64,000 nucleotides of DNA from Elusimicrobia bacterium RIFOXYA12_FULL_51_18. Lineage in GTDB: Bacteria > Elusimicrobiota > Elusimicrobia > Elusimicrobiales > UBA9959. A program made the translations under genes and the position numbers. Shown one piece after another: positions 8,306-62,478 of the stretch. The stretch is taken from positions 29,098 to 93,097 of the forward strand of contig MGVA01000043.1 in assembly GCA_001800245.1 (NCBI GenBank). The letters are read 5' to 3'. Each line of letters starts with the position of its first letter. Positions within the stretch are counted from its first letter, which is position 1. Below the pieces are notes generated by a model. That model saw only the letters and a list, made by a program, of their open reading frames with translations, did not search any database and was not told where the DNA came from.

Positions 8306-8328
8306 TCCGTTCCTCCTTTCCCAATACT

Positions 8329-8636: not shown

Positions 8637-8660
8637 TTCGAATCGCATGATCCTTACGCG

Positions 8661-15976: not shown

Positions 15977-15978
15977 GG

Positions 15979-21284: not shown

Positions 21285-21767
21285 TTGAAAAAGCAGGAAA
21301 ATAAAACGATCGCTGTCAGGGCCAGCCTTAAGGATCAGAACCTTGATGTGGTCCGTTATGCCGCGTACGCCGTGAGCGACGCGGCGTATGTTTTTATAAA
21401 ACCGGCCGGCAAGCGCGCTGTGGCGCTTGAGTTTACTCCAAAAAGTGCCGCCGCGGCAAAAGACCTGCTCCGGCGCTTTAAGGAGGAGCTGGCGGATGAA
21501 CAAAAGCGCGCAGCCATTTTTGCCTCGAACCGTGACTTGAGGGAATTCATGATCCTGAAAGCGCTCGCGTACGAAGAAATTCCTCCCTCAGGACAGCGGG
21601 AAGATTCCGGCCTCACGCCGGAACAGGAGCGCGAACTGGACGCTTTGATAGCGCAGGTTGAAAGCGAGATAAAGAAGGAATCATTCGGGAAAAAGGTTAA
21701 AGACCCGCTTGGCATTACCAGGACATGGGAAGAAAAATATGGCGCAAAAACAGGCCGCAAAAAATAA
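21285..21767 (+). CDS. HxsD-like small protein with acidic C-terminal extension
   Basis: TTG start preceded by a strong RBS aaaggagag. 160 aa. It is paralogous by eye to 23193-23483 (VRYAAYAVSDAAYVFI vs VKLAAFVFSDKADIRI; ...ELADEQKR...ILKAL vs ...EVLNQQCR...VTKAL). It sits directly upstream of an HxsB-like gene. Confidence 0.4.
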   Translation: MKKQENKTIAVRASLKDQNLDVVRYAAYAVSDAAYVFIKPAGKRAVALEFTPKSAAAAKDLLRRFKEELADEQKRAAIFASNRDLREFMILKALAYEEIPPSGQREDSGLTPEQERELDALIAQVESEIKKESFGKKVKDPLGITRTWEEKYGAKTGRKK

Positions 21768-25644: not shown

Positions 25645-25659
25645 TAAAAATCAGGGATA

Positions 25660-27776: not shown

Positions 27777-27809
27777 GAGCCGAGACCGTCTGATTTAAAG
27801 GAGAACAGG

Positions 27810-29741: not shown

Positions 29742-29755
29742 AAGAGACTCCTATT

Positions 29756-33344: not shown

Positions 33345-33370
33345 ACTTTAGAAACGCCAGGAGATAAAAA

Positions 33371-34579: not shown

Positions 34580-34639
34580 ATCCGGAAAAATTCTTCGGAC
34601 CGGCCATGACGCCGGGTTTATTTGCGAAGGTTTCAATAA

Positions 34640-36070: not shown

Positions 36071-36155
36071 CCCGGGATAATTCCAGGCTTTTACCCCCGG
36101 GCCGTATTTGAACCGGCAAAGCCTTCTTCCGTGAGCTTCGGTTTCCGCAAACGAT

Positions 36156-38313: not shown

Positions 38314-38625
38314 GTGAAAAAGAAAACATCCAAAATAAAAAAGAATATCAAACTGTTCTTCTCAAGCGAAGAAGGGAAGATGCTGGACTCCGATATCGTG
38401 AAGACCGGTCTGGCGCTGGGGATTCTCGGTGCGGCTATGGTGGATCAGGCTAATGCGGAGAACATACATTCCAACTACTTTACTTCGACCTCCCATGTCA
38501 GCCACCAGAGCCACGGTTCGCACGGTTCGCACGGTTCGCACGGCTCCCACTCGTCCCACGGTTCGCACGGTTCGCACGGCTCGCACGGTTCGCACGGTTC
38601 GCACGGTTCGCACGGGTCTTATTGA
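38314..38625 (+). CDS. hxsA: His-Xaa-Ser repeat peptide, HxsA-like candidate precursor
   Basis: 103 codons from GTG 38314 (GGGGGA 5-6 nt upstream), with an alternative ATG at 38380. The C-terminus is S-HVS-HQS-(HGS)4-HSS-(HGS)7-Y-stop. The N-terminal part contains KTGLALGILGAAMVDQANA, a signal-like segment. It is surrounded by HxsB/HxsD-like genes. Confidence 0.7.
   Translation: MKKKTSKIKKNIKLFFSSEEGKMLDSDIVKTGLALGILGAAMVDQANAENIHSNYFTSTSHVSHQSHGSHGSHGSHGSHSSHGSHGSHGSHGSHGSHGSHGSY
38494..38619 (+). repeat. 14 x 9-bp in-frame tandem repeat (consensus cacggttcg = His-Gly-Ser)
   Basis: Read directly as cat gtc agc / cac cag agc / cac ggt tcg x3 / cac ggc tcc / cac tcg tcc / cac ggt tcg x2 / cac ggc tcg / cac ggt tcg x3 / cac ggg tct. 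Confidence 0.95.
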
Positions 38626-38658: not shown

Positions 38659-39819
38659 ATGCTTAAAGGTTTGTTCTATCATTTTTCCCCCGGTAAGGAC
38701 ATCGGCCACGGGGTCCATCTTTTTCGTTTGGCCGCCCGCTTAAATACACTGTGTGAGACCGGAGCCGAATTTACTCTGTTGCGGGATTCCGGCTCCTATC
38801 CCCCAAAAAGCCTCTGGACGTACGGCCCGCATATTCCGTTGTGTCGCCCCGCCGCTCGCAATATAACCCGAAGACAAAAAACGATACTATCCGCTTTCCC
38901 GGAACGCGGCCTGGATTTCTTGCTTACCGCTTTCTTCCCTTTCGGAAGGACGGCCTGCGGCCGGGAAATTCTGCCGGCCTTGAAAAAAGCGAAAGTTTCC
39001 GGCGCCGCTATTTACGCGAGTGTTCCCATGCCTTATTTCTCCCATAGCGAAAAGGACCTGGAAAGGCTTTTTTACTTTGCCGGATTTTACGACCGGATAT
39101 TTATACATTGTCCCCCGGGTTTCGACCTTAAATATATGGCGTCGGCCGTGCCCTTTGAGGGTCGGATATCTAGCGCCCGCTTTCTTGAAGTTTTTAAAAA
39201 ACTTAAACAAAAAATCTGTTTTACGGGTTATGTAGTGCCGGGCGTAGAGAAGTCCGCGCCAAAGTCTCAGGGGGGGGGCTTTATATTGGTACATAGGGGG
39301 GGCGGTTCTACCTCGCCCGATATAGTCACCTGCGCCATACTGGCCAAAGAGCGCGTTAAAAGCGGTCTCCCGATTACGGTGGTGGCGGGACCGGCCAGCA
39401 CGGCCGCGGAGATGCGCTCCTGGCGCGGGCTTATGAAAAAGCGGAAAGTAAAAGGTGTCAGGCTTTTGAAAACCGCCGACAATTTTTTTGAGCGTATTGC
39501 CGACTGTGAAATCTGCTCCGGCACTGCCGGAGGAACGGTGTATGAAGCGTTGTATTGGAATAAAAAAATGGTCCTTATCCCCTTTAAAGGCGCACCTAAG
39601 GCCGAGCATTCGGACCAGCTGGCGCGCTCCGCCATGCTTAAAAAGCTGGCCGGCGCCATCGTGCTGGATTATGATACGCTGACGCCTGAAGGGCTGGCCG
39701 GCGCGCTTGATAAAGCGATTTTGGCTCCCCGTCCGGTTTTGGAGCCCGATCCGGACCTTTTCGACGGAGCCTCCGTTTTCGCTAGAACTATTTTGGAGGA
39801 TTTGTGTTCAAGACGGTGA
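38659..39819 (+). CDS. GT-B fold glycosyltransferase (MurG/GT28-like, COG4671-type)
   Basis: 386 aa. The N-terminal FYHFSPGKDIGHGVHLFRLAARL is a G.GH..R..A motif. The Gly-rich loop is VHRGGGSTSPD. The C-terminal half CSGTAGGTVYEALYWNKKMVLIPF...EHSDQLARS is typical of the nucleotide-sugar-binding domain. Confidence 0.55.
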   Translation: MLKGLFYHFSPGKDIGHGVHLFRLAARLNTLCETGAEFTLLRDSGSYPPKSLWTYGPHIPLCRPAARNITRRQKTILSAFPERGLDFLLTAFFPFGRTACGREILPALKKAKVSGAAIYASVPMPYFSHSEKDLERLFYFAGFYDRIFIHCPPGFDLKYMASAVPFEGRISSARFLEVFKKLKQKICFTGYVVPGVEKSAPKSQGGGFILVHRGGGSTSPDIVTCAILAKERVKSGLPITVVAGPASTAAEMRSWRGLMKKRKVKGVRLLKTADNFFERIADCEICSGTAGGTVYEALYWNKKMVLIPFKGAPKAEHSDQLARSAMLKKLAGAIVLDYDTLTPEGLAGALDKAILAPRPVLEPDPDLFDGASVFARTILEDLCSRR

Positions 39820-40772
39820 TGTTGGAGCTCACTTACAGGTGCAACCTCAAGTGCTCCTTCTGCTATCTCCTGCATAAGCGCAGACTCAATAAAGCGCCTT
39901 ACGAACTGACTACCGCCGAGATCTTGAGGCTTGTGGACCGCTTTAAGGCCGGAACCCATTTTTATCTTTCCGGAGGGGAACCGTTCCTCCGTAACGATAT
40001 CTTTGAAATCATGGAGTACATAAAAAAGGCTGGCTTCCGTTTCGGTCTCAATACCAACGGCACTCTCCTGGACGCGGTTAAAATAAAAAAACTGGCCGCC
40101 CTCGCGCCCGGCTACGTAATCTTTTCGCTGCACGGCTCCCGGCCTCTCCATGACCGGCTGACGGGGCTGAAGGGAGCCTGGCGCTCCCTGATGCGGAATA
40201 TGTCGGCCCTTGCCGCAATCTCCGGTTCTGGAACTGAGATCCTGGTCAATTGCGTGGTTAATCGTGAGAACTCCGGGGAACTCCTGAAAGTCTACCGCGC
40301 CGCTTCCAGGGCCGGGGCGCAAAGAGTGGTTTTCGAGCACCTGCAATTCCTGAAACCGCGAGAAGCTTCCGGGATGCCGGCGGTTCTGAAAGCAGGAGGA
40401 ATAATAATCCCCGAACTTGAAAAATACGGCGCGGATGCGGCCCTTATACACCGTCAGTTCGGGGAAATAAGGGGTCTGAAGGACAGGTCCGCCCATTTCG
40501 AGACAAGGCCGCTCATGACGGAACGCTGTCTCGATGATTATTATAACGGAGAGATAAAGCCTTCCGGGTCATGCGCGCGGGTATTAGACGCGCTGAATGT
40601 GGAGCCGGACGGGAAAGTGCGGCTTTGTGTCCTTTACGGCCTTAAAACCGGACACGCGCTTGCGACTCCCCTTAAAGACCTGCTGGCCTTCAAGAAAAAA
40701 TATATCGGTCGCAAATTGCCCTCCGGCTGCGCCCGTTGCTGCCACCGATTCGAGCTCTTTAGATATTTTTAA
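39804..40772 (+). CDS. radical SAM protein with SPASM/twitch-like C-terminus
   Basis: 322 aa with a GTG start overlapping the GT gene by 16 nt. It has CNLKCSFC and SGGEPFLRND. The C-terminal Cys-rich region is GSCARVLDALNVEPDGKVRLC...SGCARCCHRFE. Confidence 0.8.
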   Translation: MFKTVMLELTYRCNLKCSFCYLLHKRRLNKAPYELTTAEILRLVDRFKAGTHFYLSGGEPFLRNDIFEIMEYIKKAGFRFGLNTNGTLLDAVKIKKLAALAPGYVIFSLHGSRPLHDRLTGLKGAWRSLMRNMSALAAISGSGTEILVNCVVNRENSGELLKVYRAASRAGAQRVVFEHLQFLKPREASGMPAVLKAGGIIIPELEKYGADAALIHRQFGEIRGLKDRSAHFETRPLMTERCLDDYYNGEIKPSGSCARVLDALNVEPDGKVRLCVLYGLKTGHALATPLKDLLAFKKKYIGRKLPSGCARCCHRFELFRYF

Positions 40773-41481
40773 GGGAACTTATAAGGGAAAGCTTCACCCA
40801 CCGGAGTTCCTCCAGGCCTTTTAGAAATCCGACGTAGTCCTGAAAGACTCTAAAATTGTGCTTGTCCAATGTGGAATGGTGGAAATACGCGCCCAGGGCC
40901 GGGCCATGTCCGCGGAGCGCGGCCATGGTCTTTCTTTTGAGTCCGGCCAGGTCAAGGGGGCGGGGCTTTAAGTTCATATCGTAATCGTTAATGTTCACTT
41001 TAGCCGGAAGAAAAACAACTCCGCTTTTTTCAAAACCCGCTATCATTTTGCTGGCGGTGAATATTTTCAGGCCGGCCTCCCTCGCGGCTTTTATGGTGTC
41101 CGTGTTGTAGATATGGAAGGGCGGCACGAAAGCCGGTACGGCCCCGCGGCCGAAATTTTTTTTCATCAGGAGCGCCCCTTTGCGCATATCGTCCCGCTGA
41201 AGTTTCAGGCTTCTTGAGGGGCCGAATTCCTGCTTCGTAAAGCGGTTCCCTGAATGGTCGCGGTGGGACAAGCCGTGCTGGACGAATTCGAAAAGCTTTC
41301 CCGCCCCGGCCCGGTTTTTCATGGACGCCGCGAACCCCGGCTCTATACGCGCCGGAATGACGGCGTAGACCGCCGGCACTTTCGCCTGCAGCAGGAAGTT
41401 GAAAGTCTTCAGAAAACGCGCGTCCGTCCGCGTCACGTCATCGTCTCTCAAAAAAACGTATTTCTTTATTTTGGCAGCCAT
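40759..41481 (-). CDS. polysaccharide-deacetylase-like protein (DUF2334/NodB-like)
   Basis: ORF 40759-41544 trimmed to ATG 41481 (MAAKIKKYVFLRDDDVTRTD...). LRDDDV and FVQHGLSHRDH resemble the Asp and His-His metal motifs of this fold. The family call is tentative. Confidence 0.45.
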   Translation of the reverse strand: MAAKIKKYVFLRDDDVTRTDARFLKTFNFLLQAKVPAVYAVIPARIEPGFAASMKNRAGAGKLFEFVQHGLSHRDHSGNRFTKQEFGPSRSLKLQRDDMRKGALLMKKNFGRGAVPAFVPPFHIYNTDTIKAAREAGLKIFTASKMIAGFEKSGVVFLPAKVNINDYDMNLKPRPLDLAGLKRKTMAALRGHGPALGAYFHHSTLDKHNFRVFQDYVGFLKGLEELRWVKLSLISSLKNI

Positions 41482-42794
41482 GGGTCCCCCGCTGAATAAC
41501 CGCCGCCGGCCTCCTTGGCCAGGAACCGGCTGCCGCCAAGGCACTTAAGGAAGTGGGCGCACTTCACGCAGCGCGGAGGCAGATGTCTCGGCGTATTTAT
41601 TTTTTTAAGGATCGGAGAGCCCCAGGCTTTCTTTAACGTCCGGCCGAGGTTTTCGTTTATATAGTAGCTGGGTTTGAAAAAACCGCGCGGGTCATGGACC
41701 ACGCGGGTGTGGCCGTCGTCAAAGGCCGCGCCCAGAAAATGCTTCCTTTCCGCGGCCGGTACCAGGCATAAAGGGACCGGGTTCGCTATGACCACGCGGG
41801 GCGGGCAACGGAGCGGTAAAAGCAGCTTTGAAAGACGCGCCATGTCCGAAGGGATCAGTTTGAAATCCCCATTGTCCGCGAGGGCTCTGGGGGGCATTAT
41901 AGGGCGGTAAAGTTCCCAGATATCGGCTTTCAGTCTTTTGGCGAGCCGGTAATAGGCTGGAAAATCTTTTAGAAATCGTTTTGAGATGACCGTGCCCAAA
42001 CGGAAAGTTTTGATGCCGGCATCTTTTAGAATTTGTATATTGGAAAGTTTCCTAAAAAAAAGCCCCTTGGCGCCGGTGGCTTCCATTTCGCTGGCTTCGT
42101 CATAACCTTGCAGTGAGACAAGGACATTGTCTATATAGCGGGCGGTATTTTTCAAAGTCTCCTTGCCCGCCGCAAGAGCATTGGTGTTGACCAGGGTGTA
42201 AAAGCCCATAGCTTTGGCCTTTTTCAGCAGAGGCGGCAAATTCCCGCTCAGGAACGGCTCGCCCCCGGTGAAGCGGATATTTTTTACGCCCATTTTTTTT
42301 GCCTGGCGCAGGATTCCGCTTAAGGTTTTAAAAGACTGTTCTTCCGGCGCGCGCCCGGAAAAACATGCCCGGCATTTCAGATTGCATTTTTTTGTAAGTT
42401 CAATGACCAATTCGTTCGGCGCCGATAATACCGGCAAAAGCTCTGGCAGGAGATCTTTGTGGAAAACGCTCTTCCTTTCCAGGCCGGGGCAGAGTTCCTT
42501 GAGCCTGCAAGTCCCGCAGCCGGGAACCCTTGCGTAAGCCGCGCCTTTCTTCTTGCGGTATACTATGTGGTCCCAGGCGTCCGGCATAAAGCAGAAAGGC
42601 GGGCCTTTGATGAATACGTTGAAAAAAGTTTCAAGGCCGTTAAGGGCCTTATAGAGTATTTCCCTGGCGATAAGAGGATTCGAGCCGCGGAGCAGGGAAA
42701 GAACCACGGTGTTTTCTTTAGCCCTTACGGACACTCCTAGTCCCCTCCCCCGCAGCTGTCCGATTATATCCGTGCCGGTCATGCGAGCCGCCAT
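41466..42794 (-). CDS. radical SAM protein with ~130-aa N-terminal extension
   Basis: 442 aa with CNLKCRAC and TGGEPFLSGN. The N-terminal domain has a CGTCRLKELCPG motif. The C-terminal region is CVKCAHFLKCLGGSRF. Confidence 0.8.
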   Translation of the reverse strand: MAARMTGTDIIGQLRGRGLGVSVRAKENTVVLSLLRGSNPLIAREILYKALNGLETFFNVFIKGPPFCFMPDAWDHIVYRKKKGAAYARVPGCGTCRLKELCPGLERKSVFHKDLLPELLPVLSAPNELVIELTKKCNLKCRACFSGRAPEEQSFKTLSGILRQAKKMGVKNIRFTGGEPFLSGNLPPLLKKAKAMGFYTLVNTNALAAGKETLKNTARYIDNVLVSLQGYDEASEMEATGAKGLFFRKLSNIQILKDAGIKTFRLGTVISKRFLKDFPAYYRLAKRLKADIWELYRPIMPPRALADNGDFKLIPSDMARLSKLLLPLRCPPRVVIANPVPLCLVPAAERKHFLGAAFDDGHTRVVHDPRGFFKPSYYINENLGRTLKKAWGSPILKKINTPRHLPPRCVKCAHFLKCLGGSRFLAKEAGGGYSAGDPWLPK

Positions 42795-43927
42795 AAATAT
42801 TTTCCCTTTTTAAAATCTCTTTTAATGAGGCCTTTATTTATTAAGACCTCACCCGTAGTCAGCACCCCGGCGCCGTCATCGCAGTCGTGGCATAACGGCA
42901 GGCTTCGTGCGAGCTCCAATACTTTTGAGGTCGGAATGCCGTCTTCTTTTTTCAGGACTTCCACGAAGCATTTCTCCATGCCGCTCAAATATCCCGGAGC
43001 CGGTCTAAGCTTTTTTCTCTTCGCGGGCCCCGCCGCCGGTTTAAATCCCTTCCAGCCGAACAGTGCCAGGTAATTAAAATTCACGCCCCCGCATTTTCTC
43101 CGGAAAAAGCAGCGGGCGCAGACCGGCCCCCGTTCCTTGGCTTCGGAGACGTTTTTGTCAAGGTCCAGGATGGGGCGGCCGGGGGGGGCTACTACGGTGT
43201 TGAATTTATATAGATCCACGGCTTTCCGTTCGTGGCCGGGAAGAAGGCAGGGCGGCATGTTCAGGGCTTTTACGCCGGCTCCGAGGCCGGCGGAGTCGGT
43301 GAAATCCAGCGCTTTGGAAATACCGGCGGAAGCTTCAGGCATGCTGATGCCGAGCGTTTTAAAATTTTCCCGCATTCTGCCCACGTAAATAGGATAGATG
43401 AGTACAAATTCCGACACTCCGCGGTCCATGAAAAATTTCAAAGCCGGTTTGAGTCCGTCGTAATTGTGTCTGGTGATAAGCAGGTTCACTCCGACGGTAA
43501 GTTTCAGGGCGAGCATGTGGTCGAGGCCCGCCAGGCTTTTTCTGAAAGAGCCGCTCGCGCCCGTAAGACGGTCGTGGACCCGGGAAGTATTTCCCAGAAA
43601 AGTGAATTTGCATACAGTAAGGCCGGCTTCCGCAAGACTGAGGCACAGCGCCGGATTGGAAAGTTTCATCCCGTTGGTCTGAAGTCTTATTACTTTAAAA
43701 CCCGCACGGCGCGCCGCCGCGGTCAAAAACGTAAGATCTTCGTGTAAAAGGGCTTCGCCTCCGGAAAAACCGATCCGCTTATAGCCCTGTTTTTTTGCCG
43801 CGCAGATATGGTGCACGGCGTTTCGCAGGCTGCATTTTGCGGCCGGGTCGAAATCGCTCTGGGAGCAGAACCCGCAGGCCAGATCGCAGTTGTGGTTCAG
43901 AATGATTTCGTAACAGTCTTTGGGCAT
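42779..43927 (-). CDS. radical SAM protein with C-terminal winged-helix-like domain (paralogue of 26583-27776)
   Basis: 382 aa with CDLACGFC, SGGEALLHED and CARCFFRRKCGGVNFNYLALFGWKGFKPA. The C-terminal part reads EKCFVEVLKKEDGIPTSKVLELA...LINKGLIKRDFKKGKYLWRL. Confidence 0.85.
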   Translation of the reverse strand: MPKDCYEIILNHNCDLACGFCSQSDFDPAAKCSLRNAVHHICAAKKQGYKRIGFSGGEALLHEDLTFLTAAARRAGFKVIRLQTNGMKLSNPALCLSLAEAGLTVCKFTFLGNTSRVHDRLTGASGSFRKSLAGLDHMLALKLTVGVNLLITRHNYDGLKPALKFFMDRGVSEFVLIYPIYVGRMRENFKTLGISMPEASAGISKALDFTDSAGLGAGVKALNMPPCLLPGHERKAVDLYKFNTVVAPPGRPILDLDKNVSEAKERGPVCARCFFRRKCGGVNFNYLALFGWKGFKPAAGPAKRKKLRPAPGYLSGMEKCFVEVLKKEDGIPTSKVLELARSLPLCHDCDDGAGVLTTGEVLINKGLIKRDFKKGKYLWRLA

Positions 43928-43979
43928 AAAAGAAACGAATATTTTAGGATCAAAAGAATAAAAAAACAGCCTCTAACCG

Positions 43980-44903
43980 TTACTTTGAGCTTGCCGTCCT
44001 GAAAAAGTCCCGGACGGGCGTGAATTCTTTCCACCCGTAGAGAACCGGATATTCACGCCAGGGCCCTTCACAGATATCAAAGTACTTGCAGTCAGGGCAG
44101 AGCGGGCCTTTGGCTTTGCCTTCGGTTTTCCTGTAAACGCCGTAATCTTTTATTGTTCGGTCCGCGTCCACTACCGGCCCGGCCGGTATTATGCGTTCGG
44201 CCACGCAGGCGCTATAGCCTTTCATCAGGCAGAACGGAATAGCTTCGGTATAGCATTGGATGCCTCTGCGGATGCCGAGATCAAGACCTTTTCTGAGATA
44301 AGGCATGACCATGGTTTTCCTGGGGACCATGCGTTTTTTATTCTCGGCCGCGGTGCCGACTATGTGGATAAAGGCGAACTGGTACTGCTTCACCCCGAGT
44401 CTGATGAGGAGGGCCGCTATGGCCGGCAGTTCCCTGTAGTTCAGCGATGTTATGACTGTATTGGTGATCACTGGCAGGCCGGTTTTAACTGCATTTGCGA
44501 TGCCGGACACGCTTTGCGTAAAACTGCCGGCTGAGCCGGTCAGCGCGTCATGGGTTTCGGCCTTGGCTCCATGCAGGCTGGGCCCTAGTTCGGTTGCGCC
44601 GGCCCTTGAAAGTTCCGCGCAGAAACCTGGATAGGCTAAAGTCCGACCATTGGTCTGGAGCTGGATGTTTGCAAAACCGATTTTTTTAGCGATCCTGACA
44701 AGGTCCAAAATTGCGGGATGCAGGCTTGGTTCGCCGCCTGTGAATACTACTCCCCGTACGCCGTCGGCATAGGCTTTTTTTAGTTCCATTGCCACGGTTG
44801 CGGCGCTTTTGTCCGGGTATAGGTCCCGCTTATGCCCTTGGGCGCAAAAACCGCAAAGGTTGTTGCAGCGAAAGCTTATTTTTATATCTATGCGAGTGTA
44901 CAT
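43980..44903 (-). CDS. radical SAM protein (short-form family; paralogue of 25660-26586)
   Basis: 307 aa with CNNLCGFC, TGGEPSLHP and the C-terminal CPDCKYFDICEGPWREYPVLYGWKEF. Confidence 0.85.
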   Translation of the reverse strand: MYTRIDIKISFRCNNLCGFCAQGHKRDLYPDKSAATVAMELKKAYADGVRGVVFTGGEPSLHPAILDLVRIAKKIGFANIQLQTNGRTLAYPGFCAELSRAGATELGPSLHGAKAETHDALTGSAGSFTQSVSGIANAVKTGLPVITNTVITSLNYRELPAIAALLIRLGVKQYQFAFIHIVGTAAENKKRMVPRKTMVMPYLRKGLDLGIRRGIQCYTEAIPFCLMKGYSACVAERIIPAGPVVDADRTIKDYGVYRKTEGKAKGPLCPDCKYFDICEGPWREYPVLYGWKEFTPVRDFFRTASSK

Positions 44904-45109
44904 GAACGGATATTCGTGAACCTTTTTTAATATCGGATCACGCGGTTCCTTTTGGGGAAAATATCGGGATCCCCGCCGGATTATCAGGCCGCCCCTTGTA
45001 GAGCATGGCCGAGGATATTTTACTAATTTGAACGGCTGAAAAATGGCCCATCCGCCGCCGCGCTTGCGTAGCCGGCCGGATCAGAGCATGACCGGTTTGC
45101 GGGCCGGGT

Positions 45110-46876
45110 TTATTTCCCAAGGAATTCCGTGCCCCTGAGCGGCAGAAAGATGCGCGGGTCTTTTTCCTTGCTGAAGCTGGTCCTGAAATCATCCATAAAA
45201 AAGTTCAGGTTATAAGGCTTGAATTTAAGCGTAAGTGCCTTGACCAGTTTCCTGATGAGTTCCTTGTTTTTGTGGCCGAGTTTATCGTAAAGGCAGGTCA
45301 GCAGGTAAACGTGTTCGTTGCCTATGGCCCTGTAGGTCGCAATGGAGTCTATCTTGGCGGCGACAGCTTTAGTGGATTCCACTATCTGAGTGTTTTTCTT
45401 CTTCCACTTCAGGCCGCAGATCTCATCAAATTTCAGCGAATACTGTTCCACTATCCTATAAAGCGGATAGAAAAAATTCATAAACTGCAGCGGGGGGTAG
45501 GGGACCACCTTTAGGCCGAATTTAGTCTGCTCGCGGTAAAATCTGGAATTGGGATAAAGGTAAAAAGGGTTCAGCGTATAAAGGTCCACGAAGTCCTTAA
45601 CGGCGTCTATTAAAGACAGCGTGGCTTTAACGTCCTCGCCGGTTTCCGTGGGAAATCCCGCTATCAGTTCTATATGATTCCAGATGCCTATCTTATCGGC
45701 GTATTCCAGGTACCTGCGGCTTTTTTCAACGGTCATGCCCTTATTCACGTAATTCAACAGCCGCTGGCTGCCGGTTTCCACACCAAAAGTAAGTTTCACG
45801 GCCCCGGCGGCGCGCATTTTATCCAGCAGATGTTCGTCCATCATCCGCAGATTGGCGCAATCGAACCATTTGAGGTTCAGCTTATGCCGGATCATTTTAT
45901 CGCAGAGTTCCTCGGCCAGTTTGTAATGATTATTGAACGATGAGTTGACGAAATAGATCCCGGTGACGCCTTTCCCCTTCAGTTCCGAAAGCTCGTCGAT
46001 GATCCGGTCGGTGGATTTGACGTCGGAGGGGAGCGTGTTGTCGTTTTCGCAAAAGGCGCAGGCGCCGGGACAGGTAAGCTCGAAAACATACGAAGCAACC
46101 AGGTGTCGCTTGTCGTTCTTTATCAGTTTTTTTATGAACGGGAAATCGGAATTGTACCTTGCGAAGATCTCGCTGTCGTAAGCCTTGTATTTTTCAAGGA
46201 TGCGATTGTCGTAATGCGGGTGGGGGGCGTAAGGCCGTCTCTCCTGTCCGCCGCCGTAATTTTTCAGACTGCCGCCCCGGCGCACTATCGTTCCGGTAAA
46301 GGCGGCCTTTTCCCCGGCCAGGTCTTTCATAATCTCCAGCAGTGCTTTTTCCCCCCAGTTGGCATACACGCCGTAATCAAAACATGGGTATTTTCGCATC
46401 AGGTAAAAAAAAGCTTCCTTCGGAACGCCTCTATAGCCGATGACCGTTTTCGCGCCGAACTTTTTTTTAACGGCGAATGATAGGAGCGCGGAAAAATTTA
46501 TTATAAGCGGCTCAGCCCTTATATCAACCAGGGTTATTCCCACGAGATCGGATTTTTCCAGTTTCAGTCCTTTGAGCAGCAGGCCGCATATGCGGTCGTA
46601 TTCGGCGGCGAGTTTAGCGCGTGATCGCCCATTCACGTAGGCCTCGGCCGAATCTTTGTCGTATATCAACGCAGTTTGTCTGCGATTGAACAAGTGTTGT
46701 ACCCTGTCGAACCACGCTTTCTCCGCGTCCAGTTGCGCCGCCTCATAGCCGTTAATTATCAGTGCGTCGGCGAGCACAGCTATTGTCATGTTGGGTGGGG
46801 GGATGGGTTCGGAGATCTTCTGTTCCCCGGGGGGGTAGACCAGCGTCGCTTTAAGCGGCTTCTTAGGAGAATTCAT
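45110..46876 (-). CDS. radical SAM protein with B12-binding-like N-terminal domain
   Basis: 588 aa. The N-terminal Rossmann-like region is ATLVYPPGE...PPPNMTIAVLADALIINGYEAAQLD. The cluster motif is CPGACAFC. A TIM-barrel-type core (GIYFVNSSFN, FGVETGSQRLL) is followed by a long C-terminal extension. Confidence 0.7.
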   Translation of the reverse strand: MNSPKKPLKATLVYPPGEQKISEPIPPPNMTIAVLADALIINGYEAAQLDAEKAWFDRVQHLFNRRQTALIYDKDSAEAYVNGRSRAKLAAEYDRICGLLLKGLKLEKSDLVGITLVDIRAEPLIINFSALLSFAVKKKFGAKTVIGYRGVPKEAFFYLMRKYPCFDYGVYANWGEKALLEIMKDLAGEKAAFTGTIVRRGGSLKNYGGGQERRPYAPHPHYDNRILEKYKAYDSEIFARYNSDFPFIKKLIKNDKRHLVASYVFELTCPGACAFCENDNTLPSDVKSTDRIIDELSELKGKGVTGIYFVNSSFNNHYKLAEELCDKMIRHKLNLKWFDCANLRMMDEHLLDKMRAAGAVKLTFGVETGSQRLLNYVNKGMTVEKSRRYLEYADKIGIWNHIELIAGFPTETGEDVKATLSLIDAVKDFVDLYTLNPFYLYPNSRFYREQTKFGLKVVPYPPLQFMNFFYPLYRIVEQYSLKFDEICGLKWKKKNTQIVESTKAVAAKIDSIATYRAIGNEHVYLLTCLYDKLGHKNKELIRKLVKALTLKFKPYNLNFFMDDFRTSFSKEKDPRIFLPLRGTEFLGK

Positions 46877-47221
46877 ATAAATAAAACCGTCGGATTAAGA
46901 ATAGTCCCGTTTATAATCCTGTTTTCAAAGCGGCTTATTCCGTCCGCAAAAGGCGCAATTCCCAAAAGATAAAGGTTGATAAGGTATTTTCCTTTCTTAA
47001 ATCAGAATATAATATTTCTCCCGCGGCTTCAACACGCACGCATCGTTTCCTCCTTTTAAGTTAAATCTCCTGAGCCGCCGGGTTTTAATGAGCCGGGGGG
47101 GGGTTTTATGTATAATAATATCTGGTATTTCTCCGCATAACGCCGAAATATTTAAACTAAGATATTTAGCAGGCGGCGGAGGCCATCCCTCAATGGTTAT
47201 TTATATAGGGTTTTCCTTACT

Positions 47222-48118
47222 ATGCGTATAACAGTGGGCGTTAAATCCCTGAAAGAAGCCGATTACTTCCTGCATAATGGCGCCGATGAAATCCATTTCA
47301 GCCTGAAAACGGTGCCGGGCCACCGCGCCGCCGCGTTTTCGAACGAAAAAGAGCTCCTGGATTCAGTTAAGCTCGCCATCCGGCTCCGAAAGAAAACCAT
47401 GCTGGGCCTGAATGCGGTCTACCCGCGGGAAAAATATCCGCTCCTGTTAAGACACGCGCGCAAGATGACGGATCACGGTCTGGACGGCATTATCGTGCGT
47501 GATCCGGCGCTTTTGGAGTATTTCAACACTAAGAAGTTTCGTCCATATTTTGTTTCGAGCATCTTGTGCGCCTGCTTTAACTCCCAGGCTATGGAGTTTT
47601 ACCAGGACCTTGGAGTGCGCAGGTTTACCCTTCACAGCCAGATCTTGCCTCAAGACGTCAAAATGATGGTGAGCGCCGCCATGAAAACCGAAACCGTGGT
47701 ATTCGCGCCCTGCATATTCCTGGCCGCCAACCTCGTGCCTTTCTGTCTTTGCCCATATCCGGAATCAAGAGATCCAGGCGGAGCGCGTCTTCCAGACCAC
47801 GCCTGCACGCTGAGATATAAATGCGGCGGCAGTGATTTTCGTATGCTGGATTCAAACCTGTATTTCCAGGCCGATATGTTTTATGATTTCTACGGGATAG
47901 GAGTGCATTGGCTCAAGGTCCCTCGGCAGATGAACACTCCTAAACTCATAGCTGATTTTAAGATAACCCTGTTTCTGAACCAGCTGCTTGAAAAAGGCAT
48001 AGACAGGAAAACTTTTGCGGTAGCGGTAGCGGAGCTGGTAAAGAGAGCGGATATGAACAAATATGGAAAAAGCTATCATTTTAAGCCCTTCCCTGATAAA
48101 CCAGAAAAGCACGCTTGA
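47222..48118 (+). CDS. U32-family protein, UbiU-like large subunit (tandem copy 1)
   Basis: 298 aa. MRITVGVKSLKEADYFLHNGADEIHF, DGIIVRDPALLEYF and the Cys-rich PCIFLAANLVPFCLC...HACTLRYKCGG fit the U32 TIM-barrel plus Cys-cluster pattern. Confidence 0.6.
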   Translation: MRITVGVKSLKEADYFLHNGADEIHFSLKTVPGHRAAAFSNEKELLDSVKLAIRLRKKTMLGLNAVYPREKYPLLLRHARKMTDHGLDGIIVRDPALLEYFNTKKFRPYFVSSILCACFNSQAMEFYQDLGVRRFTLHSQILPQDVKMMVSAAMKTETVVFAPCIFLAANLVPFCLCPYPESRDPGGARLPDHACTLRYKCGGSDFRMLDSNLYFQADMFYDFYGIGVHWLKVPRQMNTPKLIADFKITLFLNQLLEKGIDRKTFAVAVAELVKRADMNKYGKSYHFKPFPDKPEKHA

Positions 48119-48881
48119 ACTCATAAAAGGCGCCATGGTTTATCTCGGCGATGAATTCTGCATTCATAAGCAGCCTTCTTTCGCGGATTTTACCTCCGCC
48201 AGGAAACTGACGGGAGCCACCCCCGTTCTTCTGAGCACGCTTTTGACCGAACCCGCTTTGAAGAGCTATGCCGTGCTGCTGTCGGAATGCGCGAAGAAAG
48301 CGCCGGGAACCGAGGTTGTGGTCAACGATATTGGATTGCTCCATTTTATCGATAAGAATTACCGCGGGCGGTTCAGTATAACGCTGGGGCGCCTGATTAC
48401 TTATTTATTCGACCCTAAGAACACGCGCGTACTAGGCTCAAAATCCGAGCGGGGGCTGGAAGGGAAAAAGATGAAGCTTTGGGAATCCAGTCTTGAGGCG
48501 ACGCCGACGCCATATATTAAAAAATTTCTCAAGCGTTACGCGGTGGAGCGGGTGGAGACGGACAGCGAACGTATCTTTAAAAAATACGCGGATAACATGG
48601 ACGTTAAAATATCCTTTTACTATCCCATGCGGCTCATGGCGATGACCCGCTTCTGCCCGTTCAGGGGCGGAATCTCCCTTGAGTGCAAGGCGCCGTGCGG
48701 CAGCCGTCTTTTAACGCTCCGAACCCGGCACCTGGATTATCCTCTCTTCTCAAAGGGCAACGCCTACTTTGTGAAAAACAGGCTGGTAAAGCACCCTAGG
48801 CTGGACCGCACGGTCAGGTTTCCATTCGTGAAGAGCAATAATTTGAAAATGTACATAAACGAAGGCTCTCTTCGCGGATAA
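48063..48881 (+). CDS. U32-family protein, UbiV-like small subunit (tandem copy 1)
   Basis: 272 aa starting 56 nt inside the preceding ORF. VYLGDEFC, VLLSTLLTEPAL, VVVNDIGLLHF and RFCPFRGGISLECKAPCG follow the UbiV-like block order. Confidence 0.6.
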   Translation: MEKAIILSPSLINQKSTLELIKGAMVYLGDEFCIHKQPSFADFTSARKLTGATPVLLSTLLTEPALKSYAVLLSECAKKAPGTEVVVNDIGLLHFIDKNYRGRFSITLGRLITYLFDPKNTRVLGSKSERGLEGKKMKLWESSLEATPTPYIKKFLKRYAVERVETDSERIFKKYADNMDVKISFYYPMRLMAMTRFCPFRGGISLECKAPCGSRLLTLRTRHLDYPLFSKGNAYFVKNRLVKHPRLDRTVRFPFVKSNNLKMYINEGSLRG

Positions 48882-48952
48882 ACGATTTTTGGCCCGGAAT
48901 ATTTAAATATCCATAAAAGCCAAACTCCGGACGGATATGCCAACCCCTTATT

Positions 48953-49828
48953 ATGCGCATAACAATCGGCATTAAATCCCTGGATGAAGCGGATTATTTC
49001 CTGCATCAAGGCGCGGATGAAATATATTTCGGGCCCGCGGTGCCAAGTCACCGCGCCTCTTTTTCCAAGGAAAAAGAGATCCTTGACTCTATCAGGCTGG
49101 CCAAAAAGCTGCAAAAAAAAACCCTGCTGGCGCTGAATGAAATTTACTCCCGGGAGCAGTACGGCTTCCTCCTTGCCCACGCGCGCCGCCTGACCGGGAA
49201 CGGCCTGGACGGGCTTGTCGTGCGCGATGTGGCGCTTCTGGAATATTTCAACAGCGAGAAATTCCGTCCCAATTTTGTCTCCAGCATAATGAGTTCCTGT
49301 TTTAATTCCCAGGCGATGAAATTTTACATGGACCTCGGAGTGGGCCGTTTTACCCTTCACAGCCAGATCATGCCGGAGGACGCCGTTAAAATGGTTTCCG
49401 CGGCCGAGACGATAATGTTCGTGTCCTGCCTCTTCCTGGAGCCCAATATAGTGCCGTTCTGTTTTTTTACTTATCCGGGAGGGCCCGGCGCTTCAAAACT
49501 TAAAGTCCGCCCCTGCAAGGCCGGGTTTAAATGCGGCCGTCACGATTTCCGCATGCTTGAGTCTAACCTTTACTTCCAGGCCGGCCTGCTCTATGACTTC
49601 CATAAACTGGGAGTGCAATGGTTGAAGATCCCGAGGCAACTTAACACCCGGAAGCTTATAACCGAGTTCAAGATAACCCGTTTTTTGAACCTCTTGCTTG
49701 AAAAAGGGCTGGACAGGGAGAGTTTTGTGAAAGCGGTGACGGAACTAATGACAAGAGCGGACCTGAATAAATATGGATCAAGCTATCTTATTAAGCCCGA
49801 CGTTGATATCCCGGCGCGGCACGCCTGA
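48953..49828 (+). CDS. U32-family protein, UbiU-like large subunit (tandem copy 2)
   Basis: 291 aa, colinear with 47222-48118 (MRITIGIKSLDEADYFLHQGADEIYF..., RFTLHSQIMPED, RMLESNLYFQA). Confidence 0.6.
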   Translation: MRITIGIKSLDEADYFLHQGADEIYFGPAVPSHRASFSKEKEILDSIRLAKKLQKKTLLALNEIYSREQYGFLLAHARRLTGNGLDGLVVRDVALLEYFNSEKFRPNFVSSIMSSCFNSQAMKFYMDLGVGRFTLHSQIMPEDAVKMVSAAETIMFVSCLFLEPNIVPFCFFTYPGGPGASKLKVRPCKAGFKCGRHDFRMLESNLYFQAGLLYDFHKLGVQWLKIPRQLNTRKLITEFKITRFLNLLLEKGLDRESFVKAVTELMTRADLNKYGSSYLIKPDVDIPARHA

Positions 49829-50660
49829 ACTTATAAAGAACTCTACGGTCTATCTCGGAGACGAATTCTGTATCCATAAACAGCCTTCGTACGCCGATTT
49901 TGTCGCCGTGAGTAAGATGACGGGGAAAAGCCCCGTCCTTATGAGCACGCTTCTGACCGACCCGGCCTTGGAAAGTTATGCCGGACTACTGTCGGAATGC
50001 GCAAAGAAAGCGCCGGGGACCGAGGTGGTGGTCAACGACATCGGCCTGCTTCGTTTTATAGATATGAACTATCGCGGGAAGTTCAGGATAATTCTTGGCC
50101 GCCTGATGACTTATTTTTTCGACACGAAACACACGCGCCTTCCGGGCTGCACCAGGCCGATACTATGGACCGGTGATGATTCCGATCCGTCCGGACGGAA
50201 GGTGAGCGGTCGGAAGACCGGCTTAAGGCGGGAAGATAAAACGCGGAAAGCATGGGAAACAAAACTTGACGCCACACCCATCGCTTACATCAGGGATTTT
50301 ATCAAACGATATGCCGTGGAAAGGGTGGAGACGGACAGCGATTATATCTTCAGAAAATACGCCTGCAATACCGACATAAAAATATCCTTCTACTATCCGT
50401 TGCGCCTCATGGCCATGACCAGATTCTGTCCGTTCATGGGTGGCATAGCCCCCAGGTGCAGCGCCCCGTGCGGCACCAATCTTTTAAAACTTAAAACCCG
50501 GCAACTTGATTATCAGCTCTTTTCCAAAGGCAATGCCTATTTTGCGAAGAATAAGCTTGTTAAGCATCCCCGGCTTGATCGCGCGATCAAAATGCCTCTT
50601 ACTCCGTGTTCCGGTTTCAAACCGGTGACGAACAATTACACTTGCCCGGGCAGGCCCTGA
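49773..50660 (+). CDS. U32-family protein, UbiV-like small subunit (tandem copy 2)
   Basis: 295 aa with the same 56-nt overlap geometry as copy 1. It is colinear with 48063-48881 except for a ~25-aa insertion (PILWTGDDSDPSGRKVSGRKTGLRRED...). Confidence 0.6.
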   Translation: MDQAILLSPTLISRRGTPELIKNSTVYLGDEFCIHKQPSYADFVAVSKMTGKSPVLMSTLLTDPALESYAGLLSECAKKAPGTEVVVNDIGLLRFIDMNYRGKFRIILGRLMTYFFDTKHTRLPGCTRPILWTGDDSDPSGRKVSGRKTGLRREDKTRKAWETKLDATPIAYIRDFIKRYAVERVETDSDYIFRKYACNTDIKISFYYPLRLMAMTRFCPFMGGIAPRCSAPCGTNLLKLKTRQLDYQLFSKGNAYFAKNKLVKHPRLDRAIKMPLTPCSGFKPVTNNYTCPGRP

Positions 50661-50757
50661 ATCGGTTGCCGCTCCATTCCCCCCATCAGGGCTGATTTTA
50701 AAAAGATTACATGTGATCGGTATAGTGGTCGGAGCGGAGAAATCCGCTCTGTCCGCG

Positions 50758-58104: not shown

Positions 58105-58117
58105 TAGTGAGTCCGTT

Positions 58118-61010: not shown

Positions 61011-61060
61011 ATGATACAATTTGGGGAAAGAAATGATCGGCAGGTTCTAAAAAAATAACA

Positions 61061-62455: not shown

Positions 62456-62478
62456 CCGTTTCAAGTAAAGAAAAGAAC

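What the first reader, a model, noticed from the sequence alone, without database searches (positions are those of the whole stretch)
47222..50660. Tandemly duplicated UbiU/UbiV-like U32 pairs inside an rSAM island: possible O2-independent hydroxylases
Seen: two consecutive large+small U32-like pairs are colinear with each other. In both copies the small-subunit ORF starts exactly 56 nt inside the large-subunit ORF, a conserved overlap. A ~50-nt stretch (about 48279-48328 vs 49989-50038) differs at only 3 positions, while the rest has diverged. Copy 2 of the small subunit has a ~25-aa basic/acidic insertion. A third pair lies at 15152-16926. Known: E. coli UbiU-UbiV form a 4Fe-4S heterodimer needed for O2-independent hydroxylation in ubiquinone synthesis. 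The U32 members RlhA and TrhP hydroxylate rRNA and tRNA bases. Few if any U32 proteins are true peptidases. No ubiquinone (ubi) genes are in the window. Inference: these pairs hydroxylate the island's product (for example His or Ser carbons, or a lipid or aromatic moiety) anaerobically. The near-identical patch suggests gene conversion or a recent duplication.
Basis: partly seen in the sequence, partly recalled or inferred. Interest (0 to 1): 0.6.

Follow-up and report, generated by a model that had tools for sequence, protein, structure and literature searches.

The report
Tandem U32-like iron-sulfur enzyme pairs
Two back-to-back copies of a two-gene module, a divergent U32 iron-sulfur enzyme plus a previously unnamed UbiV-like partner, sit inside a giant radical-SAM island built around a His-Gly-Ser repeat peptide, and most likely act as oxygen-independent hydroxylases on that island's product, though this is untested.

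Summary
Four ORFs (L1 47222-48118, S1 48063-48881, L2 48953-49828, S2 49773-50660) form two colinear pairs with identical 56-nt overlaps. There is a 50-nt patch with 3 mismatches, a 23-aa insert in S2, and a third pair at 15152-16926.

L proteins are divergent U32 members by Pfam, profile and fold. S proteins match no Pfam or NCBIfam model. They have a TIM-barrel model whose best PDB match is the U32 structure 5D88, and an invariant UbiV-type C…CX9CX3C motif. They belong to an unnamed family of about 1500 clusters that lies next to a U32 gene in bacteria and archaea.

The duplication is old, not recent. A short gene-conversion tract is plausible.

The island is an expanded His-Xaa-Ser (HXS) system, with two true HxsB genes and an (HGS)n precursor at 38314-38625. 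Peptide, six flanking genes and the L-S-L-S unit form a block conserved across Elusimicrobia. An independent contig also places an HxS-repeat protein next to an L+S pair. Elsewhere S is fused to SAM methyltransferases, which fits hydroxylation followed by O-methylation.

However, 0 of 70 other HxS-repeat loci carry L/S. Hydroxylase activity and substrate remain inferred. These are not UbiU/UbiV orthologs.

The parts
47222..48118 (+). L1: divergent U32-family TIM-barrel protein (298 aa) with a CX10CX19CX5C Cys set
   Evidence: PF01136 at 32.5 bits, cutoff 22.4. AF2 model pLDDT 82, with U32 structure 5D88 as top PDB hit at E=8e-8. Family profile hits TrhP, RlhA and UbiU. Cys positions.
48063..48881 (+). 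S1: UbiV-like partner (272 aa), member of an unnamed family. Invariant C33, C198, C208, C212
   Evidence: No Pfam or NCBIfam hit. AF2 pLDDT 82, with 5D88 as top PDB hit at E=0.017, probability 0.94. All four Cys invariant in 50 diverse sequences. hhalign to the L family gives probability 74%.
48063..48118 (+). 56-nt dual-coding overlap of L1 and S1. The S1 ATG lies inside L1's conserved NKYG motif
   Evidence: The same 56 nt is kept in orthologs L008-L012. Both reading frames are conserved.
48953..49828 (+). L2: paralog of L1 (291 aa, 64% identity)
   Evidence: PF01136 at 22.1 bits against a cutoff of 22.4. UbiU NCBIfam model at 30.5 bits. Has its own ortholog clade.
49773..50660 (+). S2: paralog of S1 (295 aa, 66% identity) with a 23-aa charged loop insert at about 50150-50220
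   Evidence: The insert is present in all S2-type orthologs, which are 289-316 aa.
49773..49828 (+). 56-nt overlap of L2 and S2
48279..48328 (+). Near-identical patch, partner at 49989-50038. It encodes LSECAKKAPGTEVVVND, which includes invariant E84, N88 and D89. Probable short gene-conversion tract
   Evidence: 3 of 50 mismatches. Codon test p=0.07. In 48231-48353, S1 is closer to S2-type genes than to its own orthologs.
15979..16926 (-). L3: third U32-like protein, with canonical CX6C spacing. Groups with the widespread S-partnered U32 type
   Evidence: PF01136 at 47.9 bits. UbiU model at 46.7 bits. Tree and Cys positions.
15152..15976 (-). S3: third S-family partner, with a 4-nt ATGA overlap with L3
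   Evidence: Carries the four family Cys.
17013..17939 (-). HxsC-like radical SAM gene immediately upstream of L3-S3
   Evidence: PF04055. TIGR03977 at 62.7 bits, below its cutoff.
38314..38625 (+). HxsA-like precursor: hydrophobic N-terminal segment, then about 13 H-G/S-S repeats, ending in Tyr. The DNA is a 9-nt tandem array
   Evidence: The same peptide precedes the GT28 gene in L008 and L010. Contig-end fragments of it lie at the same place in L002 and L009.
38659..46876 (.). Conserved companion block: GT28-like glycosyltransferase, rSAM (322 aa), DUF2334/deacetylase, rSAM (442 aa), two HxsC-like rSAMs (382 and 307 aa), B12-type rSAM (588 aa)
   Evidence: Pfam and NCBIfam. The full gene set accompanies L-S-L-S in L002, and most of it does in L008-L010.
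21709..23193 (+). HxsB radical SAM/SPASM maturase, copy 1
   Evidence: TIGR03978 at 476 bits, cutoff 370.
34640..36070 (+). HxsB radical SAM/SPASM maturase, copy 2
   Evidence: TIGR03978 at 457 bits, cutoff 370.

Best explanation
Each L+S pair encodes the two subunits of a UbiU/UbiV-style U32 iron-sulfur enzyme. L is a minimal, divergent U32 TIM barrel. S is a paralogous barrel that holds a [4Fe-4S] cluster on a UbiV-type Cys set, with one Cys far upstream and three clustered.

The long conserved gene overlap couples their translation, which would favour 1:1 assembly.

The module most likely performs an O2-independent oxidation or hydroxylation step as a tailoring reaction. By analogy with UbiUV, TrhP and RlhA, the oxygen would come from prephenate. 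The likely target in this anaerobe's expanded His-Xaa-Ser radical-SAM island is an aromatic or heteroaromatic carbon of the (HGS)n peptide, either His imidazole or the C-terminal Tyr. An alternative target is a sugar- or lipid-linked intermediate made by the same block.

The two tandem pairs and the third pair would then hydroxylate different positions or intermediates.

Shown here: homology, fold, Cys motif, L-S adjacency across phyla, and synteny with the HxS peptide.

Inferred: heterodimer formation, Fe-S binding, hydroxylase chemistry, prephenate as donor, and the substrate.
For: - L belongs to U32: PF01136, L-family profile against E. coli TrhP, RlhA and UbiU, and fold match to 5D88.
- S is U32-like: fold match and hhalign to L, with S C198 aligned to L C175.
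- S's 'YLGDEFC' aligns with UbiV's 'YLGEAVC39'.
- The four S Cys are invariant in 50 sequences at 22-36% identity. The arrangement matches the experimentally proven UbiV ligands C39, C180, C193 and C197 (PMC6747719).
- The S-family profile finds 1503 clusters.
- A U32 gene is directly adjacent to S in 15 of the 17 informative non-Elusimicrobia loci, from 10 or more bacterial and archaeal lineages.
- S is fused to class-I SAM methyltransferases in at least three architectures, and a methyltransferase gene is adjacent in L026. This is the pattern expected for hydroxylation followed by O-methylation.
- The block HxsA-GT28-rSAMs-[L S L S] is conserved down to 36% L identity.
- An independent contig, L028, places an (HAS)n protein 10 nt upstream of, and divergent from, an L3-type L+S pair.
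- Other L+S loci are embedded in rSAM, PqqD or DegT clusters.
- All characterised U32 Fe-S enzymes are O2-independent hydroxylases (PMC10990095; PMC11574389).
Against: - There is no biochemical evidence for any member of either family.
- S similarity to UbiV and U32 is weak at sequence level: 10.8 bits, Foldseek E=0.017.
- In L only two Cys (C175, C195) are invariant. The canonical CX6CX15CX3/4C motif is replaced by CX10CX17-19CX5C in L1 and L2, and L3 has only three candidate Cys.
- 0 of 70 metagenomic H[GAS]S-repeat loci, several of them rSAM-rich, contain L or S within their short flanks. Canonical HXS systems have four genes and no U32 (PMC13128918). L/S is therefore an optional, lineage-specific addition.
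- Roughly 60% of non-Elusimicrobia L+S loci showed no rSAM within 10 kb.
- No chorismate mutase or other prephenate-supply gene is in the window.
Confidence: 0.5

Rival explanations
1. L/S are Fe-S redox or scaffold partners for the neighbouring radical SAM enzymes. They would deliver or accept electrons, or present the substrate, without inserting oxygen.
For: - L/S are embedded among 20 or more rSAM genes.
- L/S recur next to rSAMs in Undinarchaeales, Vulcanimicrobiota, Nanoarchaeota and Omnitrophota loci.
- The role of the U32 clusters is unknown even in UbiUV (PMC11574389).
- The L Cys motif is non-canonical.
Against: - Many L+S loci have no rSAM nearby.
- Fusion to SAM methyltransferases points to a chemical step on a substrate rather than electron transfer.
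- The TIM-barrel residues conserved with catalytic U32s are retained.
Confidence: 0.15
2. L/S are true U32 peptidases that remove the leader, or otherwise process, the HxsA-like precursor.
For: - The family is named for collagenase-type peptidases.
- HxsA maturation in E. coli includes N-terminal processing (PMC13128918).
- No other protease is evident in the conserved block.
Against: - The four-Cys Fe-S-type motif in S is invariant.
- All characterised Cys-motif U32 proteins are hydroxylation factors.
- Canonical HXS processing needs no U32.
- Methyltransferase fusions are not expected for a protease.
Confidence: 0.12
3. L/S are housekeeping RNA-base hydroxylases of the TrhP/RlhA or YrrN/YrrO type that merely happen to lie in the island.
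For: - The L profile scores best against TrhP and RlhA.
- In archaea and Myxococcota, L+S(-MT) lies among housekeeping genes such as ProRS and ribosomal proteins. This resembles ho5U-to-mo5U logic.
Against: - There are three pairs in 64 kb.
- Synteny with the HxS peptide block is strict across divergent Elusimicrobia, and L028 shows the same link.
- NCBIfam TrhP scores are 16-36 bits against a cutoff of 534.
- The C-terminal domains of TrhP and RlhA are absent, since L is only 291-315 aa.
Confidence: 0.1
4. L/S are UbiU/UbiV orthologs for anaerobic quinone biosynthesis.
For: - The best NCBIfam hit of L is the UbiU model.
- The paired-gene layout resembles ubiU-ubiV.
Against: - Scores are 31-47 bits against a cutoff of 440, and S does not hit the UbiV model.
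- No ubiT or other ubi genes were found among the annotated ORFs.
- L is equidistant from UbiU, TrhP and RlhA.
- UbiUVT is restricted to alpha-, beta- and gammaproteobacteria (PMC6747719).
Confidence: 0.03

Closest known systems
E. coli UbiU-UbiV (O2-independent ubiquinone hydroxylase, U32 family)
   Same: - Two adjacent paralogous U32-type genes.
- One partner (S, like UbiV) has its first Cys ligand far upstream of a C-Xn-C-X3-C cluster.
- Predicted TIM barrels.
- Genes are tightly coupled.
   Different: - Not orthologs, since NCBIfam scores are far below cutoff.
- S is not detected by PF01136.
- The spacing is CX9CX3C rather than CX12CX3C.
- L has CX10C…C…C instead of CX6CX16CX38C.
- There is no UbiT and no ubi context.
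- The module is present in three copies inside a radical-SAM/HxS-peptide island in Elusimicrobia.
TrhP (YegQ) and RlhA (YdcP), RNA ho5U/ho5C factors; B. subtilis YrrN/YrrO pair (the latter from my own knowledge)
   Same: L shares the N-terminal U32 barrel (profile residues 3-250) and the LK[IV]..R motif. The link to methyltransferases in some lineages mirrors the ho5U-to-mo5U/cmo5U pathway.
   Different: L lacks the C-terminal domains and the canonical CX6CX15CX3/4C motif. The context is a peptide-maturation island rather than translation genes.
Mk0906 (PDB 5D88), U32 peptidase-domain crystal structure
   Same: It is the best structural match for both the L1 and S1 models.
   Different: Sequence identity is only 10-16% and TM-scores are 0.42-0.52. 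Mk0906 has no assigned function.
HXS antiphage system (HxsD-HxsB-HxsC-HxsA; Li et al. 2026, PMC13128918)
   Same: The island has two bona fide HxsB genes, many HxsC-like rSAMs and an HxS-repeat precursor.
   Different: - Canonical HXS has four genes, five repeats and a peptidoglycan-binding HxsA, and 99.7% of systems are in Pseudomonadota, with no U32.
- This island has more than 20 rSAM genes, about 13 HGS repeats on a roughly 100-aa peptide, a glycosyltransferase, a deacetylase, aminotransferases and three U32-like pairs.
- No antiphage role has been shown for it.

Membership tests
Peptidase U32 / 'U32 oxidase' (PF01136, IPR001539) | Match to PF01136 at or above the gathering score: L proteins | tested here: met
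   L1 scores 32.5 and L3 47.9 bits against a cutoff of 22.4. L2 scores 22.1, marginally below. All 39 L-family clusters carry a precomputed PF01136 hit.
Peptidase U32 / 'U32 oxidase' (PF01136, IPR001539) | Match to PF01136 at or above the gathering score: S proteins | tested here: not met
   S1, S2, S3 and ten diverse S-family members give no PF01136 hit. Only profile-profile similarity to the L family is seen, with probability 74% and E=2.9e-5.
Peptidase U32 / 'U32 oxidase' (PF01136, IPR001539) | [quoted passage not shown] | tested here: met
Peptidase U32 / 'U32 oxidase' (PF01136, IPR001539) | Four conserved Cys, CX6CX15CX3/4C | tested here: inconclusive
   L1 and L2 have CX10CX17-19CX5C, and L3 has CX6CX19C with three Cys. 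Only C175 and C195 are invariant family-wide. S has four invariant Cys, but in the UbiV-type arrangement.
UbiU-UbiV | NCBIfam equivalog models NF047963 and NF047965 above cutoff | tested here: not met
   L scores 30.5-46.7 bits against a cutoff of 440. L2 hits the UbiV model at 17 bits against 275. S gives no hit.
UbiU-UbiV | UbiV-type ligand pattern CXnCX12CX3C with the first Cys outside the core | tested here: met
   S has C33…C198-X9-C208-X3-C212, invariant in 50 sequences. The C33 region aligns with UbiV C39. The middle spacing is 9 rather than 12.
UbiU-UbiV | Heterodimer, each subunit binding a [4Fe-4S] cluster | not testable with these tools
   The evidence is indirect only. L and S are adjacent in 15 of 17 informative non-Elusimicrobia loci, and the gene overlaps are conserved.
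UbiU-UbiV | Co-occurrence with ubiT and the ubi pathway | tested here: not met
   No SCP2/UbiT or ubi genes were found among the annotated window ORFs. The rest of the genome was not available.
TrhP / RlhA | Equivalog model above cutoff, plus the C-terminal domains | tested here: not met
   PRK15452 scores 16-36 bits against a cutoff of 534. L is 291-315 aa and matches only the N-terminal 250-310 residues of TrhP and RlhA.
HXS (His-Xaa-Ser) system, as context | HxsB (TIGR03978) above cutoff | tested here: met
   476 and 457 bits against a cutoff of 370.
HXS (His-Xaa-Ser) system, as context | HxsA with His-Xaa-Ser repeats | tested here: met
   The ORF at 38314-38625 has about 13 H-[GSVQ]-S repeats. 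I did not test it for the peptidoglycan-binding domain reported for E. coli HxsA (PMC13128918).
HXS (His-Xaa-Ser) system, as context | HxsC (TIGR03977) above cutoff; HxsD present | tested here: not met
   The best HxsC-like rSAM, 23567-24490, scores 171 bits against a cutoff of 267.9; the others score 63-96 bits. No HxsD match was found for the small ORFs tested.

The most novel reading that the evidence does not exclude
These would be the first U32 Fe-S oxidases that act on a ribosomally made peptide or protein. They would hydroxylate His imidazole or Tyr carbons of an (HGS)n effector without O2, possibly with prephenate as the oxygen donor, within a giant Elusimicrobia elaboration of the HXS system. 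In addition, the S family would define a previously unrecognised, widespread UbiV-like partner class of about 1500 clusters. That would extend the heterodimeric U32 hydroxylase paradigm to archaea and many bacterial phyla, often coupled to O-methylation.
Probability: 0.2. Interest if true: 0.8.

Novelty: new variant of a known kind. Interest (0 to 1): 0.55.

Why it matters
U32 'oxidases' are a poorly understood class of anaerobic hydroxylases. Only ubiquinone and RNA bases are known substrates, there is no in vitro assay, and the role of the clusters is unclear.

This locus gives three things:
- An unannotated partner family (S) that appears to generalise the UbiU/UbiV two-subunit design far beyond Proteobacteria.
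- Recurrent fusion or adjacency to methyltransferases and to radical-SAM/RiPP-type clusters, which suggests U32 enzymes serve as tailoring hydroxylases in anaerobic natural-product or peptide maturation.
- A defined, genetically linked candidate substrate, the small (HGS)n peptide. This could make U32 chemistry testable by simple mass spectrometry.

It also shows that the recently described HXS defence system has much larger, chemically richer relatives outside Proteobacteria.

Tried and rejected
- **Sequence search of PDB with L1 and S1.** Only chance hits were returned.
- **hhalign of the S alignment against single E. coli UbiV and UbiU sequences.** Probabilities were about 1%, though the C33/C39 register was suggestive.
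- **Locus search with the broad S alignment (A5).** It was too divergent. The close alignment A3 was used instead.
- **PADLOC.** Nothing specific was found for L, S or the block.
- **Promoter and terminator scan of 46700-50900.** Counts were not above shuffled expectation.
- **Programmed frameshift fusing L and S.** Rejected. The A-run at the L1/S1 junction is absent at L2/S2, and S starts with a conserved Met in all homologs.
- **Recent duplication.** Rejected.
- **UbiUV orthology.** Rejected.
- **L/S as a general component of HxS-repeat systems.** Rejected. 0 of 70 metagenomic HxS-repeat loci carry L or S, with the caveat that most flanks are only a few kb.
- **Nitrogenase-paralog rSAM loci of groundwater Elusimicrobia (bioRxiv 10.1101/765248).** That paper describes a different gene set, does not mention U32, and this window contains no Nif-like genes.
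- **An A4-based profile result.** It was discounted because A4 contained a canonical U32 (P0071). The search was repeated with A2.

Full report
**1. The observation**

The four ORFs exist exactly as described: L1 47222-48118, S1 48063-48881, L2 48953-49828 and S2 49773-50660. In both pairs the S start lies 56 nt inside the L ORF. The two L-S units are colinear. They are 68% identical at DNA level in a gapped global alignment, and 64% (L) and 66% (S) identical at protein level. The stretch 48279-48328 differs from 49989-50038 at 3 of 50 positions. S2 carries a 23-aa charged insertion in a loop that is low-confidence in the S1 model. A third pair lies at 15152-16926 on the minus strand, with only a 4-nt ATGA overlap. 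'Large' and 'small' are misnomers, since S2 is longer than L2.

**2. What the proteins are**

*L proteins.* L1 and L3 match PF01136 above the gathering score, at 32.5 and 47.9 bits. L2 is marginal, at 22.1 against 22.4. The best NCBIfam hits are UbiU and TrhP, but at 16-47 bits against cutoffs of 440-534. The L proteins are therefore U32 members but not orthologs of any named enzyme. An L-family profile built without any canonical U32 sequence scores E. coli TrhP 79.5, RlhA 74.5, UbiU 68.7 and UbiV 11.2 bits. An AlphaFold model of L1 (pLDDT 82) has the U32 crystal structure 5D88 as its best PDB match, at E=8e-8.

*S proteins.* S1-S3 match nothing in Pfam or NCBIfam, and all database members are named 'hypothetical protein'. 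The S1 model (pLDDT 82) is a beta/alpha barrel whose top PDB hit is again 5D88, though weakly, at E=0.017 and probability 0.94. Profile-profile comparison aligns S with L over 171 columns, with probability 74% and E=2.9e-5. That alignment puts S C198 on L C175, the 'GRC' cysteine of U32 proteins.

*Cysteine motifs.* Across 50 S-family sequences sharing 22-36% identity with S1, four Cys are invariant: C33, C198, C208 and C212. This C…CX9CX3C arrangement has the first Cys far upstream. It mirrors the proven [4Fe-4S] ligands of UbiV, which are C39, C180, C193 and C197 in a CXnCX12CX3C motif (PMC6747719). HMM alignments place S 'YLGDEFC33' on UbiV 'YLGEAVC39'. In L the motif is non-canonical. L1 and L2 have CX10CX17-19CX5C, and L3 has CX6CX19C. 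Only two Cys are invariant across the whole L family.

**3. The S family is large and travels with U32 genes**

A profile search of 1.84 billion representative proteins found 1503 S-family clusters at E<=1e-3 and 842 at E<=1e-10.

In loci from Thermodesulfobacteriota, Desulfobacterales, Myxococcota, Vulcanimicrobiota, Omnitrophota, Neptunomonas, Altiarchaeota, Methanobacteriota, Undinarchaeales and Nanoarchaeota, an L-type U32 gene lies directly beside S in either order. This holds in 15 of the 17 informative loci. The two exceptions are S genes next to PMT_2 and PilZ genes, and one of those sits at a contig end.

S is fused to a class-I SAM methyltransferase in Nanoarchaeota (MT-S), in Myxococcota (S-MT) and in a further cluster. 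In Omnitrophota a methyltransferase gene precedes U32+S. Such fusions are what one expects if L/S creates a hydroxyl group that is then O-methylated. The ubiquinone and mo5U/cmo5U pathways work this way. This parallel is inference.

**4. Context in the window**

The source is Elusimicrobia bacterium RIFOXYA12_FULL_51_18, by 100% protein matches. Lipid-A and BamA genes occupy 290-11171. Beyond them the window is a radical-SAM island with more than 20 rSAM genes, including seven with a B12-binding domain.

Two of the rSAM genes are bona fide HxsB, with TIGR03978 scores of 476 and 457 bits against a cutoff of 370. Many others are HxsC-like but fall below cutoff.

An HxsA-like precursor lies at 38314-38625. 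It has a hydrophobic N-terminal segment followed by about 13 H-G-S repeats and ends in Tyr. It is encoded by a 9-nt tandem array.

The peptide is followed by GT28, rSAM-322, DUF2334, rSAM-442, rSAM-382, rSAM-307 and rSAM-588. Together with the L-S-L-S unit these form a block whose gene content is largely or fully conserved, though rearranged, in four other contigs. One of them, L002, has L proteins only 36% identical. In GWD2_63_28 an L-S-L unit is instead inserted into the paralogous sub-cluster, at the position where this window has a TPR gene.

The canonical HXS system (HxsD-B-C-A) was recently shown to be an antiphage system. Its HxsA receives a +8 Da rSAM-dependent modification. It has no U32 component, and 99.7% of systems are in Pseudomonadota (PMC13128918).

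**5. Is L/S tied to the HxS peptide?**

*For the link.* The Elusimicrobia synteny described above supports it. So does an independent contig, L028. There an (HAS)n-repeat protein with a Cys-rich tail is divergently transcribed 10 nt from an L3-type U32 plus an S gene that is 24% identical to S1.

*Against a general link.* A metagenome scan for H-[GA]-S-like repeat DNA returned 120 loci. Seventy had true HxS repeats and about 30 had rSAM genes alongside, several with 5-7 rSAMs. None had L or S. The flanks were mostly a few kb, whereas in this window L1 lies 8.6 kb from the peptide.

L/S is therefore an optional, lineage-specific tailoring module. It has been recruited to HxS systems at least in Elusimicrobia and in the L028 lineage, and to other rSAM, PqqD or DegT clusters elsewhere. 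About 60% of non-Elusimicrobia L+S loci showed no rSAM within 10 kb.

**6. Duplication, overlap and the near-identical patch**

*Duplication.* L1 and L2, and likewise S1 and S2, each have their own orthologs in several Elusimicrobia genomes. In a rough neighbour-joining tree they form separate clades. The S2-type insertion is shared by all S2 orthologs. The duplication is therefore old. The two L copies of L002 group together, which indicates either an independent duplication or concerted evolution.

*Overlap.* The 56-nt overlap is retained in both pairs of L009-L012 and in pair 1 of L008. It is 41 nt in pair 2 of L008 and in L013, and 38 and 32 nt in L002. The S ATG sits inside the L motif N-K-Y-G, whose Y281, G282 and S284 are nearly invariant. 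The S frame at that point encodes the conserved first beta-strand, M-E/D-x-A-I-x-L-S-P. The region is thus constrained in two frames and probably couples translation. A frameshift fusion is unlikely because no slippery site is shared between the two junctions.

*Patch.* The patch encodes LSECAKKAPGTEVVVND, which contains invariant E84, N88 and D89. Among identical amino acids, 13 of 17 codons are identical inside the patch against 89 of 162 elsewhere (Fisher p=0.07). In 48231-48353, S1 is closer to the window's S2 (0.78-0.92) and to S2 orthologs (0.74-0.83) than to its own S1 orthologs (0.71-0.77). This is the reverse of the rest of the gene. A short gene-conversion tract superimposed on a strongly selected motif is the best reading, but the statistical support is modest.

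**7. Mechanism**

The best-supported model is a UbiUV-like two-subunit Fe-S enzyme performing an O2-independent hydroxylation or oxidation as a tailoring step for the island's product. Prephenate would be the oxygen donor by analogy (PMC10990095).

All known U32 substrates are aromatic or heteroaromatic sp2 carbons: the UQ ring, C5 of U, and C5 of C. Within the (HGS)n peptide, the His imidazole or the terminal Tyr is therefore a more likely target than Ser. This is inference.

The rivals are an Fe-S redox or scaffold role for the rSAM enzymes, a leader peptidase, a housekeeping RNA hydroxylase, and quinone synthesis. Each is weighed in the rival-explanations section of this report. None is excluded experimentally.

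**8. Novelty and verdict**

The literature held here contains no report linking U32 proteins with RiPP or rSAM clusters. Reviews list only UQ and RNA substrates for U32 oxidases.

The finding is a new variant of a known kind. It comprises a divergent U32 clade and an unnamed UbiV-like partner family, triplicated within a giant HXS-type island.

Interest is moderate to good (0.55). The homology and context results are solid and partly new. Activity and substrate remain untested.

Noticed in passing
window 38314-38625 (+): HxsA-like precursor with about 13 His-Gly-Ser repeats ending in Tyr, encoded by a 9-nt tandem array (CACGGTTCG x 11.6). It is much shorter and more repetitive than the E. coli HxsA effector.
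   Followed up: partly
window 21709-23193 and 34640-36070 (+): Two full-score HxsB paralogs in one island. In the related contig L013, each of the two SPASM rSAMs is followed within about 300 nt by a homolog of the secreted Cys-rich 360-aa protein at window 37218-38300, which has no Pfam match.
   Followed up: partly
window 56656-63870 (+): Five consecutive paralogous B12-binding radical SAM genes of 463-487 aa. Their best NCBIfam similarity is to HpnJ and BchE, far below cutoff. The run continues to the window edge.
   Followed up: no
window 23567-31851 vs 38659-46876: The island contains two paralogous sub-clusters (rSAM-308b pairs with rSAM-307, and rSAM-397 with rSAM-382). In genome GWD2_63_28 (L013:9169-11696) an L-S-L unit without a second S sits in the first sub-cluster, at the position where this window has a 643-aa TPR protein.
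   Followed up: partly
window 18146-18718 and 18715-19122 (+): A secreted barnase-type ribonuclease (PF00545) is followed by a 135-aa ORF. From memory that ORF resembles a barstar-type inhibitor through its 'NWDALLDCL' motif. If so, a toxin/immunity pair lies between the third U32 pair and the HXS island. The second ORF was not searched.
   Followed up: no
window 12923-14665 (-): A 580-aa protein with a PPDK_N ATP-grasp-like domain and a PEP-utilizer mobile His domain lies just downstream of L3-S3. It could be a phosphotransferase acting on the same substrate.
   Followed up: no
L020:9671-11389, L022:9434-11584, L007:10001-11470: S-family domains are fused to class-I SAM methyltransferases. 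The methyltransferase is C-terminal in Myxococcota and N-terminal in Nanoarchaeota, and a U32 gene always lies immediately upstream.
   Followed up: partly
L028:1644-2288 (-): A protein of roughly 200 aa with a signal-like N-terminus, about 19 H-A/S/G-S repeats and an extremely Cys/Tyr-rich tail is divergently adjacent to U32+S. No rSAM is present on the 5.9-kb contig.
   Followed up: partly
L001:48-896 and L006:7023-7862: Stand-alone S-family genes without an adjacent U32 gene, both followed by a PMT_2 glycosyltransferase and a PilZ protein. This may be a different use of the S barrel.
   Followed up: no
L082, L083, L136 (metagenome HxS-repeat loci): Other HxS-repeat peptides are flanked by 4-7 radical SAM genes but have no U32/S genes. 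Expanded HXS-type islands are therefore not unique to this genome.
   Followed up: no
window 30403-36887 (+): Genes for a class-V aminotransferase/cysteine-desulfurase-like protein, an M20 peptidase, an OTCase-like carbamoyltransferase and a truncated tetrapyrrole-methylase-like protein are interleaved with the rSAM genes. Their roles are unexplained.
   Followed up: no
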